Of a stretch of 64,000 nucleotides of DNA, positions 27,482 through 44,106 are shown one piece after another; within the stretch, counting starts at the first letter, position 1, and the number at the start of each line of letters is the position of its first letter. A program made the translations under genes and the position numbers. The DNA is taken from assembly GCA_930991035.1 (NCBI GenBank), contig CAKNRV010000002.1, forward strand, positions 19,134-83,133, written 5' to 3'. This DNA is from an uncultured Clostridium sp. GTDB taxonomy: Bacteria > Bacillota > Clostridia > TANB77 > CAG-508. Below the pieces are notes generated by a model. That model had not been told where the DNA came from. It was given only the letters and a program-made list of their open reading frames with translations, and ran no database searches.

Positions 27482-28819
27482 CTAATGTCCTCTGCTCATT
27501 GTTGGAGCACCATACTCTTCTTCTATTTCCTCGTGTATATCTTCTATCTTTTCGTCCGGGGTCTTTCCTCCTCTTTCGTTGTACCTTCTAGTAAATTCCT
27601 CTGGAGAAATTTTTGCCTTTTCTGCTTCTTTTGCAAGTGTTGTTTCTGTTCCATCTTCTAAAACAATTACTTCGTCTGGTGTAACTAAATCGTTGCTTGC
27701 TGTGTCGTCTATATTTCTTAGTCTAGTATCTCCATCTCTTTCTAGCTCTCCTTCTGCCCTGTCCATTTCGTCTTCTATCTCCACATTTTTGTGTTTATCC
27801 ATTGCCTCCCTAACAGCCCTTGTAGTTGGTCTTTGGTTTTTGGTTTCTATTGGTGCAGAAAAATACCTTTCATCCTTGTCCTCACTTAAATCTGCTCTTA
27901 CATAGTCAACTTCTAATACTCCGTATTGTCCTACTCTTACAGATAGCATTTCTTCTTGCCCATTTGTTTTGCTTCTTCCATTTATTCTGACCATTCCAGC
28001 AACTTGCTCTTCCTCTACAAGGCTTCCGTCTCTGCTATTTATTGACATAACTGTTTGTCCTGTTGTAGTTCCTTCTACATTCTCTAAACTGTCAATAGAC
28101 TGAATTTGTCCGTTTTTATCAATTCCTACAAATGAAAATCTTCCGCTTTGTCCTTTTGCTTTGTCAGAGTAAACAACTCCTACTTTAACAATTCCTTTTT
28201 GCTTTATTTCTGGAATCATATCAGCTAAAGTTTCTGATTGAGTTACTTTCGCATTTGGGTCTATTTCTTGTTTGCTTGTGAGTTTATCAAATACTGGAGT
28301 TTGGTCAGTTTTCATTTCTGAATATGACTCAATGTCCTTGCTTCCCGTTTTTTCTGATATTTTTTCTATTCTTTTATCTATTTCTTTTTCTTCTAGCTCT
28401 TCCTTTGTCAAAGATAGCTCTTGCTCACCTAAATCTTCAAACTCCATATCTTCTTCTATTCCTAGTAGCTCCATATTTTCCTCTCCAAGTTGCTCTAGAA
28501 ACTTAGGTTCAAATATGATAATTCCTCTTTCGTCAACTGTTGCTATTAGGTTTTGGTCTTTGTCAAATATAGCATACGTAAAGTTTTCTTCTTTTCTTGG
28601 CTCTAGCTCTTTTTCTGGAACAGTATTATCTCTAATCTTTGCTTTGTATATGTCATTTTGTTCTAAATTCATTCTATTGCCTTTTATTTGAAAAGATTTA
28701 TAATATTCAATCCCTACTAACTCTTTGTTGTTTTGCTCTAAGCCTTCACTAAGTTTTTGCTTTATTTCTAACATTGTATTTACTACTTCTTCGTGTTTTT
28801 TGTTGTTCATACTTGTCAC
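27482..28819 (-). CDS. Hypothetical acidic protein (445 aa), last gene of the type IV secretion-like block
   Basis: Highly charged, with no recognisable motifs. Confidence 0.45.
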   Translation of the reverse strand: MTSMNNKKHEEVVNTMLEIKQKLSEGLEQNNKELVGIEYYKSFQIKGNRMNLEQNDIYKAKIRDNTVPEKELEPRKEENFTYAIFDKDQNLIATVDERGIIIFEPKFLEQLGEENMELLGIEEDMEFEDLGEQELSLTKEELEEKEIDKRIEKISEKTGSKDIESYSEMKTDQTPVFDKLTSKQEIDPNAKVTQSETLADMIPEIKQKGIVKVGVVYSDKAKGQSGRFSFVGIDKNGQIQSIDSLENVEGTTTGQTVMSINSRDGSLVEEEQVAGMVRINGRSKTNGQEEMLSVRVGQYGVLEVDYVRADLSEDKDERYFSAPIETKNQRPTTRAVREAMDKHKNVEIEDEMDRAEGELERDGDTRLRNIDDTASNDLVTPDEVIVLEDGTETTLAKEAEKAKISPEEFTRRYNERGGKTPDEKIEDIHEEIEEEYGAPTMSRGH

Positions 28820-28984
28820 TCTCCTTTGTAATGTTTTTGTTTACAATTTTATAATATGTTTATTTACTATTTATAAATTAACTTATATTTGTATTTATAT
28901 ACATTATGTTATCTTGTCTATGTATACATATTTTTTATGTATATATTTTTATTATTTATTCTATGTCATAGCATTTTTACAGCG

Positions 28985-29950
28985 CTATTTTTCTAAGTCT
29001 TCTTCTTTCTTTTGGTCTTTTGACTTATTTTCTATTGGTTCTTTTTGCTCTGATGTAACACTATGTACATCCACTCTAAGTCCTGCTCTGTAATCATCTT
29101 CTCCAAATAAACTAGAAAAATCATAAAATTTATTGTTTTCTTTTGATCTATTAAAATCCGGAACATATAAATACATATCTTCTTGTTGTATTTTCTTCCT
29201 GTCTAAATCTGTTAAATCTGTTTTATACTCTTTTATAAGTTCTTGTTGTAATTTTGGTATTAAATCTTCTAATCCAAGTTTTTGTAAATCGGGAGTAATT
29301 TCTTCGTTTAATAATTCTGGTACTACATATGCACCATATCTTTGTGCTTTAATAAGTTTCACTAAACTTGGTATAGCATTTTCTTTTATTGTATAGTTAA
29401 ATACACTTTCATTTACTTTAGTATAATCAGATAAATTTAGTGCAATATCGTTTATATCATCTTCTGTAAAATAATATATAACTGTTGAAGATTCTTGTTC
29501 GTTTTTGTGCCTAAATTTTGAAAAAAATCTTTTTATTGGACTTGTCTTTTCTAATCTTTCACTTTGCTCTTCTACATTTCTTTCATTTTCTCTTTTTTCT
29601 ATCTCCAGCATCTTTTTATCATATTTATCTAAGCAGTGCATTCCTCTATTTAAATAATCTGTTAAATCATCTATAATTGCATTTCCTAAAAATGACCAAC
29701 CTGCATATTTTCCATTCTCGTATTCCTGTGGAAATATTGATATATTTGCTTTTTTAAATTGTTGCTGTATCTCTACCATCTTATTATTTACTGTAATTGC
29801 TAAATTAGGTACTTGTTCTTGTATACCTATTACATTTATAAAATTTTCTATATTTTCTCTTACTTGAGAAATTTTTTTTGAGATTTCAAGAATTTTATCT
29901 ACTATATTATCTTTTACTTTTTTCTCGTCTCTCTTTTCCATTTCTTTCAT
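28985..29950 (-). CDS. Hypothetical charged protein (321 aa)
   Basis: No recognised family. The partial conserved leader motif ATATAATATATTTAGGTTTTA lies just upstream. Confidence 0.45.
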   Translation of the reverse strand: MKEMEKRDEKKVKDNIVDKILEISKKISQVRENIENFINVIGIQEQVPNLAITVNNKMVEIQQQFKKANISIFPQEYENGKYAGWSFLGNAIIDDLTDYLNRGMHCLDKYDKKMLEIEKRENERNVEEQSERLEKTSPIKRFFSKFRHKNEQESSTVIYYFTEDDINDIALNLSDYTKVNESVFNYTIKENAIPSLVKLIKAQRYGAYVVPELLNEEITPDLQKLGLEDLIPKLQQELIKEYKTDLTDLDRKKIQQEDMYLYVPDFNRSKENNKFYDFSSLFGEDDYRAGLRVDVHSVTSEQKEPIENKSKDQKKEEDLEK

Positions 29951-30085
29951 TTTTCCTCAATCCTCATATATAATATATTTAGGTTTTACATTCTAGTTAT
30001 TGCTTTTTACTGCTTAACATTTATGTTCCCTATAACTTATAGTATACGCTATTTTACAAGTTTTTTCAATAGAAATCAAAAAATA

Positions 30086-30122
30086 CGGTATGCAAAATTA
30101 TCAATTGCATACCGCATTTTTT
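30086..30122. terminator. Bidirectional terminator (CGGTATGCAA-N9-TTGCATACCG with T-runs on both sides)
   Basis: 10-bp stem between the 445-aa and 321-aa genes. Confidence 0.5.
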
Positions 30123-30288
30123 GTCGAATTTTTGTTTAAGGTTATCTATACTAAAAAGTATATTTTAATAATTATATCACATAATTTTAAATTTTCTAGT
30201 CTTTTATGAGTAATTTTATTACTACTTATAGTTAATTTTTTAATTATTTAACAATTCTCAGTATTATGCTTTATTCAGTTTACTCTGT

Positions 30289-43094: not shown

Positions 43095-43511
43095 TTATGC
43101 TTGCGACATTACCTCTATAACTAATTTCCATATTCCAAATGCTCCAAATGCCACTACACAACCTACTATATATATTATTAATGTTTCTTTTATTTTTGCT
43201 TTTTGATCTACACTTCCTGTAATAAACCTAATTCCTATAAATAGTCCCATTATAACAGCTACCACAATTGCAACCGCAAGTAAAATGTTATAAAGAATGT
43301 CTGACATTGACTCTAATTTTGAGTCATTTATTGTGTTTTGTAAACCTATACCTCCAGAATGCATAAAGTCATCTGCCCCATCCCATATATCAGATAATGA
43401 CGCAGCTTTTACACAATTAGGTATTGTTACAAGCAGAACAAAAGCCAAAATTACAACAAACATTTTTTTTATGAATTTTGTTTTCATTTTTTCCTCCTTG
43501 CTACAAATCAT
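43095..43511 (-). CDS. VirB2/TrbC-pilin-like small protein, paralogue 2
   Basis: 138 aa with the same topology; the loop is RFITGSVDQKAKIKETLIIYIVG. Confidence 0.45.
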   Translation of the reverse strand: MICSKEEKMKTKFIKKMFVVILAFVLLVTIPNCVKAASLSDIWDGADDFMHSGGIGLQNTINDSKLESMSDILYNILLAVAIVVAVIMGLFIGIRFITGSVDQKAKIKETLIIYIVGCVVAFGAFGIWKLVIEVMSQA

Positions 43512-43920
43512 TTAACTTATCTGCCATTTCCATAATTATTGGTATTAATTGTGATAGTGCAAAGAATATAAAAACACCTATTAAATACGGAATCATACTT
43601 TTCTTATAATCTGCTCTTTCTGATACACTCGCCGTCATATATTTTATCCCTAATATTAATAACGTAATTACTGTAACAACCACACCTATAACTCTTATTA
43701 TAGTTATAATTGTTTTTGCAAAATCTGTTAACCTTCCAGCTTGATTTAATGCATTGTCGACTCCATCTGGTGTGTAATCTTCTGGTTCTAGTAAGCCAGT
43801 AGTTGTCGCCATCTTCACTCTGTCTACTACTTGGATTTCTGCTCCATATACAGGATAGCTCATATTTAAAATTACAAATATTAATAATATAATTATACTA
43901 CAAATTGATACTTTTTTCAT
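43501..43920 (-). CDS. VirB2/TrbC-pilin-like small protein, paralogue 1
   Basis: 139 aa. Signal peptide …SYPVYG/AEIQ, and helix–KYMTASVSERADYKKSMIPYL–helix. Confidence 0.45.
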   Translation of the reverse strand: MKKVSICSIIILLIFVILNMSYPVYGAEIQVVDRVKMATTTGLLEPEDYTPDGVDNALNQAGRLTDFAKTIITIIRVIGVVVTVITLLILGIKYMTASVSERADYKKSMIPYLIGVFIFFALSQLIPIIMEMADKLNDL

Positions 43921-43992
43921 CTTTCCCCCATAAATACATTATAAATGATAATTTTTCCTTTTGCAATATAATTTTTTTATTTTTTGTATTTT

Positions 43993-44028
43993 TTGCGAAA
44001 TTGTAACCATTTTGTAACATTTATGTAA
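43993..44028. promoter_or_regulatory. Triple direct repeat TTGTAACCATT TTGTAACATTT ATGTAACATTT (11-bp period) about 75-110 bp upstream of the first pilin-like gene
   Basis: Read directly from the sequence. Candidate operator in the promoter of the secretion operon. Confidence 0.45.
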
Positions 44029-44057
44029 CATTTTCGTAATAAAATTGGGTAAAAAAC

Positions 44058-44106
44058 AAACCGTAATAAAACATTTCTTTGTTTTATTGCAGTTTGTTTT
44101 TCCTTG
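44058..44106 (-). terminator. 21-bp imperfect palindrome (AAAACAAACCGTAATAAAACA / TGTTTTATTGCAGTTTGTTTT) plus T-run; terminator of the Spo0E-like gene
   Basis: Long stem with 2 mismatches, followed on the minus strand by TTTTTTACCC. Confidence 0.45.

What the first reader, a model, noticed from the sequence alone, without database searches (positions are those of the whole stretch)
27482..44106. Gram-positive-type type IV secretion gene block with no relaxase, coupling protein or integrase anywhere in the window
Between about 27.5 and 44 kb lies a compact minus-strand block:
- three VirB2-pilin-like genes;
- a VirB3/PrgI-like gene;
- a 414-aa bitopic coiled-coil protein;
- a VirB4 ATPase with both Walker motifs;
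- a 992-aa VirB6-like polytopic protein;
- a 318-aa bitopic protein;
- a 1028-aa VirB1-like wall hydrolase (2 CHAP-like domains plus a tail-lysozyme-like domain);
- three further hypothetical genes.

This is the core of a Firmicutes conjugative mating-pore system of the ICEBs1/Tn916/pCW3 type. Three of the four modules that define a conjugative element are missing from 27 kb on one side and 20 kb on the other: MOB relaxase, VirD4/TcpA-type coupling ATPase, and integrase/excisionase. The flanks are housekeeping genes (dac, tRNAs, M16 peptidases, rpsU, cysK). GC content is indistinguishable from the surrounding chromosome.

That points to one of three possibilities: a domesticated or repurposed secretion system with a non-conjugative role, a decayed ICE remnant, or a split system whose DNA-processing module sits elsewhere. 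Two neighbouring features hint at host-integrated, possibly sporulation-linked, regulation. An immediately upstream Spo0E-like gene is one. A leader motif shared with the M16 peptidase operon is the other.
Basis: partly seen in the sequence, partly recalled or inferred. Interest (0 to 1): 0.8.

Follow-up and report, generated by a model that had tools for sequence, protein, structure and literature searches.

The report
Domesticated chromosomal type IV secretion system
This block is a complete, pilus-type type IV secretion machine that has stopped being part of a mobile element and is now a fixed, very strongly conserved chromosomal gene set in a large clade of uncultured small-genome gut Clostridia, which closely parallels the non-conjugative system recently found to be essential in Patescibacteria.

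Summary
Window 27482-43920 (minus strand) encodes three VirB2-like pilins, PrgI/VirB3, a TrsD/TraC-like protein, VirB4, a VirB6-like polytopic protein, two bitopic NTF2-type proteins, a muramidase plus NlpC/P60 hydrolase and two unknown proteins. No relaxase, coupling protein or integrase was found in the 64 kb.

It is not a decayed ICE. The same gene order occurs in the 80 species-representative genomes examined (at least 567 loci matched). In most of them the flanks are the same housekeeping genes. VirB4 is 81-93% identical across them, against 50-80% for the neighbouring M16 peptidases. The nearest mobile-element VirB4 proteins are only 40-43% identical, and those elements do carry a coupling protein and integrases nearby.

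The "split system" idea is partly right. An equally conserved VirD4-type coupling protein sits elsewhere in this lineage, in a fixed dnaJ-T4CP-sbcCD context. No relaxase lies near either locus.

A conserved sigma-A-type promoter and arrays of 11-bp-phased TTACA repeats precede both the pilin genes and the machinery genes, and in the window also a thioester adhesin gene.

The closest analogue is the relaxase-less, pilin-bearing T4SS of Patescibacteria. The substrate is unknown. I found no description of such a system in Clostridia.

The parts
43996..44040 (-). Array of four 11-bp-phased direct repeats (ATTACG, then GTTACA three times) upstream of the pilin promoter; candidate transcription-factor site
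   Evidence: Spacings of 11, 22 and 33 nt dominate across loci. The triple TTACA pattern is expected 0.04 times per window by chance.
43938..43966 (-). Near-consensus sigma-A-type promoter (TTGCAA, 17-nt spacer, TATAAT) of the pilin genes
   Evidence: A promoter-like TTG..-16-18 nt-TA...T match lies upstream of the first pilin ORF in most loci. A stricter pattern, TTG[AC]A.-16-18-TA.A[AT]T, was met in 47 loci.
43501..43920 (-). VirB2-like pilin 1 (139 aa)
   Evidence: Pfam T4SS_pilin 33.3 bits and TrbC 28.1 bits; signal-like segment plus 2 TM.
43095..43487 (-). VirB2-like pilin 2 (130 aa; the ORF extends to 43511)
   Evidence: Pfam T4SS_pilin 32.4 bits; gene call in L081.
42617..43012 (-). VirB2-like pilin 3 (131 aa)
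   Evidence: Pfam TrbC 36.8 bits and T4SS_pilin 35.3 bits. The three paralogues are 24-38% identical to each other.
42577..42614 (-). Second 11-bp-phased TTACA repeat array, between the pilin 3 stop and the prgI promoter
   Evidence: The same site is present in 40 or more related loci.
42554..42579 (-). Terminator-like hairpin plus T-run after the pilin genes (probable attenuation point between the pilin and machinery transcripts)
42125..42475 (-). PrgI/VirB3-like membrane protein (116 aa)
   Evidence: Pfam PrgI 30.9 bits, cutoff 27; RBS and start codon.
40915..42135 (-). TrsD/TraC-like bitopic protein (406 aa), resembling the N-terminal part of mycoplasma-ICE VirB4
   Evidence: Sub-cutoff NCBIfam hits: TrsD/TraD family 3.9e-5 and VirB4_plasma N-terminal region 3.3e-9. 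Precomputed Pfam PF26593 TraC-like. 59% median identity across species.
38988..40961 (-). VirB4 ATPase (657 aa)
   Evidence: Walker A and B present. 81-93% identical in 80 species representatives.
35997..38975 (-). VirB6-like polytopic membrane protein (992 aa) with a coiled coil, a low-complexity linker and a charged C-terminal domain
   Evidence: About 8 hydrophobic segments. Sub-threshold hits to MMCAP2_0566, Mbov_0396 and pLS20_p028 conjugation membrane proteins. Position after virB4 conserved.
35957..35994 (.). Perfect 16-bp inverted repeat between the VirB6-like gene and the next gene
   Evidence: I24.
34886..35842 (-). Bitopic protein (318 aa): N-terminal TM, NTF2-like domain, beta-sandwich domain; VirB8-like at the level of fold and topology
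31787..34873 (-). Cell-wall hydrolase (1028 aa): N-terminal TM, two NlpC/P60-like copies (the second with Ser for the nucleophile Cys), C-terminal Phage_lysozyme2 muramidase-type domain
   Evidence: Domain content varies between species.
31647..31683 (-). 37-nt leader motif (GGTTTATAGGTA...ACCTAAATA) also found before both M16 peptidase genes (45927-45943, 47248-47284)
   Evidence: (D8).
30289..31626 (-). Bitopic protein (445 aa) with NTF2-like C-terminal domain(s); second VirB8/TcpC-like candidate
   Evidence: N-terminal TM. 7 of 25 family members hit DUF4864 and 2 hit DUF3887; that these families have an NTF2-like fold is recalled from memory, not tested here. Conserved position.
28985..29950 (-). 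Hydrophilic 321-aa protein, specific to the window's species (an insertion into the block)
   Evidence: No homologue in any of 80 related loci. Present only in L081, which is the same species. No Pfam hit.
27482..28819 (-). Acidic cytoplasmic 445-aa protein, last conserved gene of the block; lineage-specific, fold unknown
27335..27362 (-). Terminator-like hairpin after the last gene of the block
24824..24850 (+). Third TTACA array (inverted), about 110-150 nt upstream of the start of the 1645-aa DUF11/thioester-domain surface protein (19751-24688, minus strand); possible co-regulated adhesin

Best explanation
The block is a vertically inherited, chromosomally fixed ('domesticated') type IV secretion system of the monoderm (MPF-FATA-like) kind.

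Components:
- three divergent VirB2-like pilins;
- VirB3/PrgI;
- a TrsD-like protein;
- VirB4;
- a VirB6-like channel protein;
- two NTF2-type bitopic proteins;
- a two-activity wall hydrolase;
- a lineage-specific cytoplasmic protein.

It derives from a clostridial conjugative element. It is no longer part of one. It is core to a large clade of uncultured gut Clostridia; the two closed chromosomes among the fetched loci are about 1.6-1.7 Mb.

Inferred working model:
- A transcription factor binds the 11-bp-phased TTACA arrays and drives two sigma-A units. One is a highly expressed pilin unit, ended by a hairpin. The other is the machinery unit.
- The hydrolase opens the wall.
- VirB4, PrgI, the TrsD-like protein, the VirB6-like protein and the NTF2 proteins form the membrane channel and assemble a VirB2-type pilus or stalk.
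- A separately encoded, equally conserved VirD4-type coupling protein probably feeds the substrate.

The function is not transfer of a mobile element. Most likely it is a contact-dependent translocation or pilus apparatus that serves the cell's own lifestyle, as in Patescibacteria.

Shown: the identity of the parts, core status, synteny, constraint, the remote T4CP and the regulatory repeats. Inferred: assembly, use of the T4CP, and the substrate.
For: Parts:
- Pfam, NCBIfam and PDB hits.
- NTF2 fold of the 318-aa protein and of the 445-aa protein family.

Core status:
- At least 567 loci in species-representative genomes encode a relative. The best 80 are 81-93% identical.
- Gene order pilin x3, prgI, p414, virB4, p992, p318, hydrolase, p445a, p445b is conserved.
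- The upstream M16a, M16b and spo0E genes are syntenic in 56-58 loci.
- VirB4 median identity is 87%, against M16a 61, M16b 68, cysK 73 and dac 61.
- At 50% clustering the clade collapses into one full-length cluster. The next relatives are 40-42% identical.

Origin:
- The closest plasmid or element relatives (40-43%) share the local order and have a T4CP and integrases adjacent.

No relaxase, T4CP or integrase:
- None in the window.
- A tblastn with a clostridial T4CP over the window and 82 related loci found one T4CP only, in L069.
- Pfam scans of about 12 representative non-syntenic flank proteins found no relaxase or integrase. They did find one Mu-type transposase in L003.

Remote T4CP:
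- 690 aa, 2 TM, Walker A and B.
- At least 531 metagenome relatives matched; the best 80 are 75-81% identical to the L069 copy.
- Fixed context ypeB-vanW-murF-ddl-dnaJ-x-T4CP-sbcD-sbcC-prfB-...-pcrA.
- Better conserved than its neighbours (78% against 64-66%).
- Physically linked to the VirB4 block in L069, with further links in L068 and L113.

Regulation:
- Conserved sigma-A-type promoter.
- TTACA arrays before the pilin and prgI units across species.

Surface-exposed parts evolve fast (pilins 40-49%; VirB6-like, NTF2 proteins and hydrolase about 33%) while all stay intact.

Analogy: Patescibacteria T4SS (PMC12102498; PMC12857230).
Against: - No experiment or expression data.
- The rest of the window's own genome could not be searched. 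A relaxase or a second module elsewhere is not excluded, and the T4CP is shown for the lineage, not for this genome.
- The VirB6 assignment rests on topology, gene position and sub-threshold hits.
- The VirB8 assignment rests on a generic NTF2 fold only.
- The presence of a T4CP keeps DNA transfer possible.
- The identity of the lineage (TANB77 or another order) is not established.
- Beyond the best 80 loci, the identity and synteny of the other 487 or more matches were not inspected.
Confidence: 0.78

Rival explanations
1. A chromosomal DNA-transfer or DNA-uptake machine. The T4SS and the remote T4CP would move chromosomal DNA between cells of the lineage. This could work like conjugation using an unrecognised or distant relaxase, or relaxase-free like the archaeal Ced/Ted import systems or H. 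pylori ComB.
For: - A bona fide VirD4-type T4CP is conserved in the lineage.
- It sits next to sbcCD, in a conserved stretch that also holds recR and pcrA.
- The ancestry of the system is conjugative.
- Relaxase-free DNA importers derived from T4SS are known (PMC12102498, introduction).
Against: - No relaxase was found in the 64-kb window. None was found among the roughly 30 flank proteins scanned from the 160 related loci; a relaxase was not searched for in the rest of those loci.
- The recombination-gene neighbourhood may be coincidence, since all are housekeeping genes.
- In Southlakia the analogous T4SS is essential independently of competence, and its T4CP is dispensable (PMC12857230, PMC12102498).
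- The TTACA arrays are absent from the T4CP locus, so the T4CP is not co-regulated through that site.
Confidence: 0.2
2. A decaying remnant of an integrative conjugative element that has lost its relaxase, T4CP and integrase and is no longer functional.
For: The mobility modules are absent from the window. The hydrolase varies in domain content, and one species-specific gene (28985-29950) is inserted.
Against: - All 11 conserved genes are intact and collinear in the species examined.
- VirB4 is more conserved than adjacent housekeeping genes.
- Promoter and operator arrays are conserved.
- The catalytic Walker motifs are intact.
Confidence: 0.02
3. An ordinary ICE or conjugative island whose remaining modules lie just outside the 64-kb window.
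For: T4CP and relaxase genes can lie far from virB4 in some elements (PMC12102498). One related contig (L069) has a T4CP about 8 kb from virB4.
Against: - There are 27 kb and 20 kb of housekeeping genes on the two sides.
- The same housekeeping flanks occur in most of the species examined.
- In other subclades the block abuts mnmE-mnmG-parB.
- The lineage's T4CP lies in a fixed housekeeping context without a relaxase or integrase.
Confidence: 0.03

Closest known systems
Chromosomal T4SS of Patescibacteria/CPR (Southlakia epibionticum, Nanosynbacter lyticus; Wang 2023; Quinonero-Coronel 2025, PMC12102498; review PMC12857230)
   Same: - Monoderm MPF-FATA-like VirB4 in a chromosomal, lineage-wide conserved locus.
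- Array of divergent VirB2-like pilin paralogues next to it (here 3, 24-38% identical to each other; there 2-11, mean 25%).
- PrgI/VirB3, a TrsD-like protein directly before VirB4, and VirB6.
- Peptidase and lysozyme-type hydrolases downstream.
- No relaxase nearby; T4CP encoded far from virB4.
- Reduced genomes and uncultured hosts.
- In one subclade here the block lies next to origin-proximal genes (mnmE-mnmG-parB), as noted near dnaA in Patescibacteria.
   Different: - Different phylum. The MAG records are labelled Clostridia, and sporulation or germination genes (Spo0E-like here; SleB-like and YpeB in the T4CP loci) lie in the fetched loci. Genomes are about 1.6-1.7 Mb rather than under 1 Mb.
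- Clear NTF2-type VirB8-like proteins are present here.
- Whether the VirB4 proteins are sister clades was not tested.
- Essentiality and an epibiotic lifestyle are unknown here.
- The December 2025 review calls the Patescibacteria system unique among monoderms in its pilins and essentiality.
Clostridium plasmid or element conjugation systems (C. botulinum p12/29 NZ_KT897275, C. beijerinckii NZ_CP107023 plasmid; metagenomic element L165/L166)
   Same: - Closest VirB4 outside the clade (40-43% identity).
- Same local order: small TM proteins, PrgI-size protein, TraC/TrsD-like protein, VirB4, an approximately 900-aa polytopic protein, wall hydrolase.
   Different: - Those are on plasmids or elements. 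A T4CP and tyrosine recombinases lie within 6-12 kb in the C. beijerinckii plasmid and in L166; a tyrosine recombinase only was seen in the fetched stretch of C. botulinum p12/29.
- Only p414, VirB4 and the TM core of p992 are detectably similar by BLAST.
- Their small proteins are not recognised as VirB2-like by Pfam.
Firmicutes ICE and plasmid mating-pore systems (ICEBs1 Con, Tn916, pCW3 Tcp, pCF10 Prg, pIP501/pGO1 Tra)
   Same: VirB4, VirB3/PrgI, VirB6-like and VirB8-like (NTF2) proteins, and a bifunctional muramidase plus NlpC/P60 (CHAP-type) hydrolase as in CwlT, PrgK and TcpG. A TrsD-like protein as in the pGO1 subclass.
   Different: - Those systems lack VirB2-like pilins (PMC12857230, PMC12102498).
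- They carry an adjacent T4CP, relaxase and integration or replication functions.
- They are accessory. Here the block is core, and all NCBIfam scores are far below the family cutoffs (VirB4 206 bits against cutoff 325 for the CD1110 family).
T4CP-less or relaxase-less specialised T4SSs of diderms (H. pylori ComB, Bordetella Ptl, Brucella VirB) and archaeal Ced/Ted
   Same: A T4SS core kept on the chromosome without a relaxase and used for something other than plasmid transfer.
   Different: Diderm or archaeal envelopes and different MPF classes. ComB, Ptl and Brucella VirB lack a T4CP, whereas this lineage keeps one.

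Membership tests
Type IV secretion system, monoderm (MPF-FATA-like) core | VirB4-family ATPase with Walker A and B | tested here: met
   Pfam P-loop_TraG, AAA_10 and DUF87. NCBIfam VirB4 families hit, all below the equivalog cutoffs. PDB 4AG5 at 6.8e-25. Motifs read in the sequence.
Type IV secretion system, monoderm (MPF-FATA-like) core | VirB3/PrgI-like small membrane protein next to VirB4 | tested here: met
   PF12666 at 30.9 bits, above the cutoff of 27.
Type IV secretion system, monoderm (MPF-FATA-like) core | VirB6/PrgH/ConG-like polytopic channel protein | tested here: inconclusive
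   About 8 hydrophobic segments and a conserved position after virB4. Only sub-threshold NCBIfam hits (32 bits against cutoff 90). No Pfam hit.
Type IV secretion system, monoderm (MPF-FATA-like) core | VirB8-like bitopic protein with an NTF2-like fold | tested here: inconclusive
Type IV secretion system, monoderm (MPF-FATA-like) core | Peptidoglycan hydrolase (VirB1 analogue) with glycosidase and peptidase domains | tested here: met
   Phage_lysozyme2 at 119.8 bits and NlpC/P60 at 28.9 bits. Two NlpC/P60-like copies.
Conjugative element (ICE or conjugative plasmid) | Relaxase (MOB) and oriT | tested here: not met
   None among all ORFs of at least 110 aa in the window. None among the roughly 30 representative flank proteins scanned from the VirB4 and T4CP loci. 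The rest of the genome was not searchable.
Conjugative element (ICE or conjugative plasmid) | Type IV coupling protein adjacent to the system | tested here: not met
   None in the window. A conserved T4CP exists elsewhere in the lineage's chromosome.
Conjugative element (ICE or conjugative plasmid) | Integrase or excisionase, att boundaries, accessory (patchy) distribution | tested here: not met
   No recombinase in the window. The same housekeeping flanks occur in 56-58 of the loci. The block is present in at least 567 matched loci of species-representative genomes. att sites were not searched for explicitly.
Patescibacteria-type non-conjugative chromosomal T4SS | Array of divergent VirB2-like pilin genes beside a monoderm-type virB4 | tested here: met
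   Three pilins, PF18895 and PF04956, 24-38% identical to each other, conserved in the loci.
Patescibacteria-type non-conjugative chromosomal T4SS | TrsD-like protein associated with VirB4 | tested here: inconclusive
   NCBIfam TrsD/TraD at 3.9e-5 (23.6 bits, cutoff 200) and the N-terminal region of VirB4_plasma. Precomputed PF26593 TraC-like.
Patescibacteria-type non-conjugative chromosomal T4SS | Lineage-wide chromosomal conservation without a relaxase; T4CP remote | tested here: met
Patescibacteria-type non-conjugative chromosomal T4SS | VirB4 belongs to the monophyletic Patescibacteria clade | not tested
   No Patescibacteria VirB4 sequences could be obtained. The identified neighbours are Clostridia. 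The host records are labelled Clostridia, so membership of that clade is unlikely; a sister relationship is open.
Patescibacteria-type non-conjugative chromosomal T4SS | Required for growth or an epibiotic lifestyle | not testable with these tools
   The organisms are uncultured. Only strong sequence constraint is shown.

The most novel reading that the evidence does not exclude
These uncultured small-genome gut Clostridia (possibly the TANB77-type clade) live in obligate or habitual physical contact with other cells. They would use a co-regulated kit (VirB2-type pilus, T4SS channel, remote T4CP, thioester adhesin) to take resources from, or exchange macromolecules with, a partner cell. This would be an independent Firmicutes counterpart of the Patescibacteria epibiotic T4SS, and it would explain why the clade resists cultivation. 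A corollary: clostridial MPF-FATA-like systems with VirB2-like pilins may be the kind of donor from which Patescibacteria obtained theirs.
Probability: 0.2. Interest if true: 0.95.

Novelty: new variant of a known kind. Interest (0 to 1): 0.8.

Why it matters
The current view (FEMS Microbiology Reviews, December 2025, PMC12857230) has two parts. First, Gram-positive T4SSs are almost all DNA-transfer machines of mobile elements and lack VirB2 pilins. Second, the Patescibacteria system is the single exception, in being host-essential and pilin-bearing.

A second, independent case in hundreds of species of gut Clostridia would have several consequences:
- It would show that domestication of monoderm T4SSs is not a CPR oddity.
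- It would give a more tractable comparison for working out what such systems translocate.
- It would give a concrete lead on the biology and cultivation of an abundant uncultured gut clade: try co-culture with a partner, and look for cell-cell attachment. If the clade is TANB77, it has been linked to response to cancer immunotherapy (PMC11680825).

The conserved TTACA operator arrays also offer a direct handle for finding the regulator and the inducing signal.

Tried and rejected
- Exact look-up of the 672-aa VirB4 ORF found nothing. The true product is 657 aa.
- Profile searches of the p318, p445a, p445b and p414 families against PDB sequences gave only chance-level hits.
- Per-member Pfam scans gave nothing consistent for p318 and p445b.
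- Generic promoter and terminator scanning was uninformative in this AT-rich DNA (107 promoter-like sites against 106 expected). Cross-species comparison was needed.
- Rfam found only the three tRNAs, so the GGTTTATAGGTA leader is not a known RNA family.
- Attempts to place the organism in GTDB failed. These used literature searches for CAG-780 and UMGS names and the supplement of PMC11680825. TANB77 membership is a guess based on host, GC, genome size and NCBI labels.
- Cluster-member look-up of the nearest VirB4 representatives gave almost no taxonomy. One was Heliorestis at 36%. The relationship to the Patescibacteria clade therefore could not be tested.
- Sporulation-linked control was considered and set aside. 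Spo0E is not linked in all subclades, and the conserved promoter is sigma-A-like.
- Decayed ICE and ordinary ICE just outside the window were considered and rejected on synteny and conservation.

Full report
**1. What is in the window**

The region 27482-43920 carries twelve collinear minus-strand ORFs.

- Pilins. The three small proteins at the 5' end hit T4SS_pilin (PF18895) and TrbC/VirB2 (PF04956). Each has a signal-like segment and two hydrophobic helices. They are 24-38% identical to each other.
- PrgI. The next gene hits PrgI above its cutoff.
- TrsD-like protein. The 414-aa ORF (406 aa from the likely start) is bitopic. It gives sub-threshold NCBIfam hits to the TrsD/TraD family and to the N-terminal third of the mycoplasma-ICE VirB4 model. 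It carries a precomputed Pfam TraC-like (PF26593) label.
- VirB4. This protein hits P-loop_TraG, AAA_10 and DUF87 and several VirB4 NCBIfam models, all well below equivalog cutoffs. It matches the solved VirB4 C-terminal domain 4AG5. Walker A and B are intact.
- VirB6-like protein. The 992-aa protein has about eight hydrophobic segments, a coiled coil, a long low-complexity linker and a charged C-terminal domain. It has only weak hits to conjugation membrane proteins.
- 318-aa protein. It models well (pLDDT 86). The model shows an N-terminal membrane anchor, an NTF2-like domain and a beta-sandwich.
- 445-aa protein at 30289-31626. It is also bitopic. Members of its family hit DUF4864 and DUF3887, families I recall as NTF2-like.
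- Hydrolase. The 1028-aa protein combines a Phage_lysozyme2 domain with two NlpC/P60-like copies. The second copy has Ser in place of the nucleophile Cys.
- Two hydrophilic proteins (28985-29950 and 27482-28819) have no family or fold match.

Every other ORF of at least 110 aa in the 64 kb was scanned. None is a relaxase, coupling protein, recombinase or transposase. A tblastn with a clostridial T4CP was also negative. GC does not set the block apart.

**2. It is a core chromosomal locus, not a mobile-element remnant**

A scan of one genome per species found at least 567 loci encoding a relative of this VirB4. The best 80 are 81-93% identical. All but two of these records are labelled as uncultured Clostridia, Clostridium, Clostridiaceae or Eubacteriales. 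The exceptions are one labelled only 'uncultured bacterium' (L050) and one labelled Bacteroidaceae (L078). The set includes two closed chromosomes of 1.57 and 1.70 Mb.

- Across those 80 loci the order pilin x3, prgI, p414, virB4, p992, p318, hydrolase, p445a, p445b is kept.
- In 56-58 loci the upstream M16 peptidase pair and the Spo0E-like gene are syntenic too.
- In many loci dac follows the block.
- VirB4 (median 87% identity, minimum 81%) is much better conserved than the adjacent housekeeping genes: M16a 61%, M16b 68%, cysK 73%, dac 61%.
- PrgI and p414 are at about 60%.
- The surface-exposed parts diverge fast but remain intact: pilins 40-49%; VirB6-like, NTF2 proteins and p445b about 32-34%.
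- Only 28985-29950 is specific to the window's species.

In a library clustered at 50% identity the whole clade collapses into a single full-length cluster. Its representative is 65% identical to the query. The next full-length relatives are only 40-42% identical. So this is a discrete clade.

The nearest outside relatives lie on Clostridium plasmids (43%) and on a metagenomic element (40%). These have the same local gene order. A T4CP and/or tyrosine recombinases lie within 6-12 kb: both in the C. beijerinckii plasmid and the metagenomic element, a recombinase only in the fetched part of the C. botulinum plasmid. The system thus descends from a clostridial conjugative element but has been fixed in the chromosome.

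A more distant chromosomal version (VirB4 65%) has three TrbC pilins, TraX, SSB and M23 peptidases next to pgi. In one subclade the block directly follows mnmE-mnmG-...-parB, which are origin-proximal genes.

**3. The coupling protein is elsewhere**

One related contig (L069) carries a genuine VirD4-type T4CP immediately upstream of the M16 genes. Using it as a probe, at least 531 metagenome stretches encode a relative. The best 80 are 75-81% identical, and their loci average 27% GC.

- The full-length protein is 690 aa. It has two N-terminal membrane segments, Walker A and B motifs and an acidic tail.
- Its context is fixed and housekeeping: recR, a glycosyltransferase, SleB-like, ypeB, vanW, murF, ddl, dnaJ-like, an unknown protein of about 170-200 aa, T4CP, sbcD, sbcC, prfB, a phosphoesterase, a ZIP transporter and pcrA. 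There is no relaxase or integrase.
- Like VirB4, it is better conserved (78%) than most neighbours (64-66%).

Three contigs tie this T4CP to the VirB4 lineage. L069 carries both. L068 begins with the pcrA end. L113 has T4CP-sbcD followed by p992-like and p318-like genes. The window's own genome could not be checked. The 'split system' reading is therefore supported for the coupling protein at the level of the lineage. It is not supported for a relaxase.

**4. Regulation**

Consensus scanning alone is noise here. Comparison across species shows a promoter-like TTG..-16-18 nt-TA...T match upstream of the first pilin ORF in most loci. Typically it reads TTGAAA or TTGCAA, a 17-nt spacer, then TATAAT. 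A stricter form of the pattern was met in 47 loci. The window copy is at 43966-43938.

Upstream of it lies an array of three or four (A/G)TTACA repeats with exact 11-bp phasing. Spacing counts are 11 nt: 30, 22 nt: 20, 33 nt: 7.

The phased triple pattern occurs at three sites in the window, against 0.04 expected:
- before the pilin promoter (44002-44039);
- between the pilin 3 stop and a terminator-like hairpin that precedes the prgI promoter (42577-42614);
- inverted, about 110-150 nt upstream of the start of the neighbouring 1645-aa DUF11/thioester-domain surface protein (24824-24850).

The pil3-prgI site is present in at least 40 related loci. It is absent from the T4CP loci.

Direct repeats with an 11-bp phase are typical of OmpR/PhoB-family response regulators. 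The resemblance to the B. subtilis PhoP box is recalled from memory and is only a lead.

It lies before both M16 genes and before the internal gene 30289-31626. It is only sporadically conserved elsewhere.

The Spo0E-like gene is just part of the M16 neighbourhood. It is missing where the block abuts parB. The conserved promoter is sigma-A-like. A sporulation link is therefore not supported.

**5. How it most likely works**

Shown: a complete set of monoderm T4SS channel parts plus pilins, a wall hydrolase, strong purifying selection on the ATPases, fast evolution of exposed parts, dedicated conserved cis-regulatory sites, and a remote conserved T4CP.

Inferred:
- A regulator bound at the TTACA arrays turns on a pilin transcript, which is attenuated at the hairpin, and a machinery transcript.
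- The hydrolase opens the wall.
- VirB4, PrgI, the TrsD-like protein, the VirB6-like protein and the NTF2 proteins assemble the channel and a VirB2-type filament.
- The T4CP delivers a substrate.
- The thioester adhesin may provide the contact.

Because the block is core and immobile and no relaxase is in sight, moving a mobile element is not its job. I favour a contact-dependent translocation or pilus apparatus serving the cell's own lifestyle (confidence about 0.78 for the domesticated-T4SS statement; the substrate is open). Chromosomal DNA exchange or uptake is the main rival (about 0.2). A decayed ICE (about 0.02) and an ICE extending beyond the window (about 0.03) are effectively excluded.

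**6. Comparison with what is known**

The closest described system is the chromosomal T4SS of Patescibacteria. Its features are:
- a monoderm MPF-FATA-derived VirB4;
- arrays of divergent VirB2-like pilins;
- PrgI, TrsD and VirB6;
- peptidase and lysozyme genes downstream;
- a T4CP usually far from virB4;
- almost no relaxases;
- in Southlakia, essentiality for epibiotic growth (PMC12102498; PMC12857230).

The present block matches this architecture almost part for part. However, it sits in genomes labelled Clostridia that carry sporulation and germination genes and are about twice as large. Both papers state that Gram-positive T4SS classes lack VirB2 homologues, and the review calls the Patescibacteria system unique among monoderms. 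Full-text searches found no paper linking such a system to TANB77 or to other reduced-genome Clostridia. The one paper on a conserved TANB77 surface structure describes a Tad-type pilus, not this locus (PMC11680825).

Membership of the classical ICEBs1/Tn916/pCW3 type is not supported. Pilins and a TrsD-like protein are present, mobility modules are absent, and scores are far below family cutoffs. Whether the organism is TANB77 could not be established.

**7. Verdict**

It is a new variant of a known kind: a Patescibacteria-like, non-mobile, pilin-bearing T4SS in a large gut Clostridia clade, with its coupling protein relocated. Interest 0.8.

Noticed in passing
window 2646-10861 (minus strand): A giant GH94/glucoamylase-domain gene (cyclic beta-1,2-glucan synthase/phosphorylase-like; 2507-aa ORF) appears broken at its 3' end into three overlapping ORFs (3338-10861, 3070-3420, 2646-3089). 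All three hit consecutive parts of the Glyco_hydro_94 catalytic domain. This points to a frameshifted pseudogene or to assembly errors.
   Followed up: no
window 19751-24688 (minus strand) and 24824-24850: A 1645-aa surface protein with five DUF11 repeats and a thioester domain (TED) lies beyond dac and the tRNA genes. Its upstream region holds an inverted copy of the 11-bp-phased TTACA array found before the T4SS operons. This suggests co-regulation of an adhesin with the T4SS.
   Followed up: partly
window 31647-31683, 45927-45943, 47248-47284 (minus strand): The motif GGTTTATAGGTAnAnCC...ACCTAAATA occurs 20-60 nt upstream of three start codons (p445a, M16b, M16a). No Rfam family matches it. 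In other species it occurs mainly before the M16 genes. Its function is unknown (operator or translational hairpin).
   Followed up: partly
window 28985-29950 (minus strand): A 321-aa hydrophilic, coiled-coil-like protein is inserted between two conserved genes of the block. It is found only in the window's species (and L081) and has no family hit.
   Followed up: partly
L085-L164 (for example L146:9476-11545): An orphan VirD4-type T4CP is fixed between a dnaJ-like gene plus an unknown protein of about 170-200 aa and sbcD-sbcC. recR lies upstream and pcrA downstream in the same conserved stretch. The unknown upstream protein is 72% conserved and has no Pfam hit; it might be a T4CP partner.
   Followed up: partly
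L070, L074, L079, L080 (upstream of about 7000): In one subclade the T4SS block directly follows mnmE-mnmG-(rsmG/parA-like)-parB, that is, the replication-origin region. This echoes the dnaA proximity reported for Patescibacteria T4SS loci.
   Followed up: partly
L003:4391-6421: A Mu-type transposase (rve plus Mu-transposase C-terminal domain) and an ATPase-like ORF are inserted between the M16 genes and the pilin genes in one closed genome. This shows the locus tolerates insertions without loss of the T4SS genes.
   Followed up: no
L167 (GCA_037193465.1, JBANSJ010004695.1): A more distant chromosomal version (VirB4 65% identical, GC 27%) has pgi, TraX, SSB, an M23 peptidase, three TrbC pilins and a different set of downstream genes ending in a 1171-aa M23 peptidase. 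The organism was not identified.
   Followed up: no
window 33200-34200 (protein residues about 223-375 and 403-555 of the hydrolase): The two NlpC/P60-like copies arose by internal duplication (75-78% DNA identity). The first keeps the nucleophile Cys (NLCQAW). The second has Ser (GLSQAW) and may be a binding or inactive module.
   Followed up: partly
window 11483-12918 (minus strand): A radical SAM/SPASM enzyme is followed by a 112-aa ORF without a family hit. This may be a peptide-maturation pair.
   Followed up: no
window 1-1736 (minus strand): An OmpR-family response regulator (987-1736) is followed by a histidine kinase cut by the window's end. The kinase has TM segments and a HisKA H-box. 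This is one candidate class for the TTACA-repeat binder, but no link was tested.
   Followed up: no
L078 (CAVFFR010000005.1): One contig carrying this Clostridia-type locus is filed under a Bacteroidaceae isolate assembly. It is probably contamination or mis-binning in that record.
   Followed up: no
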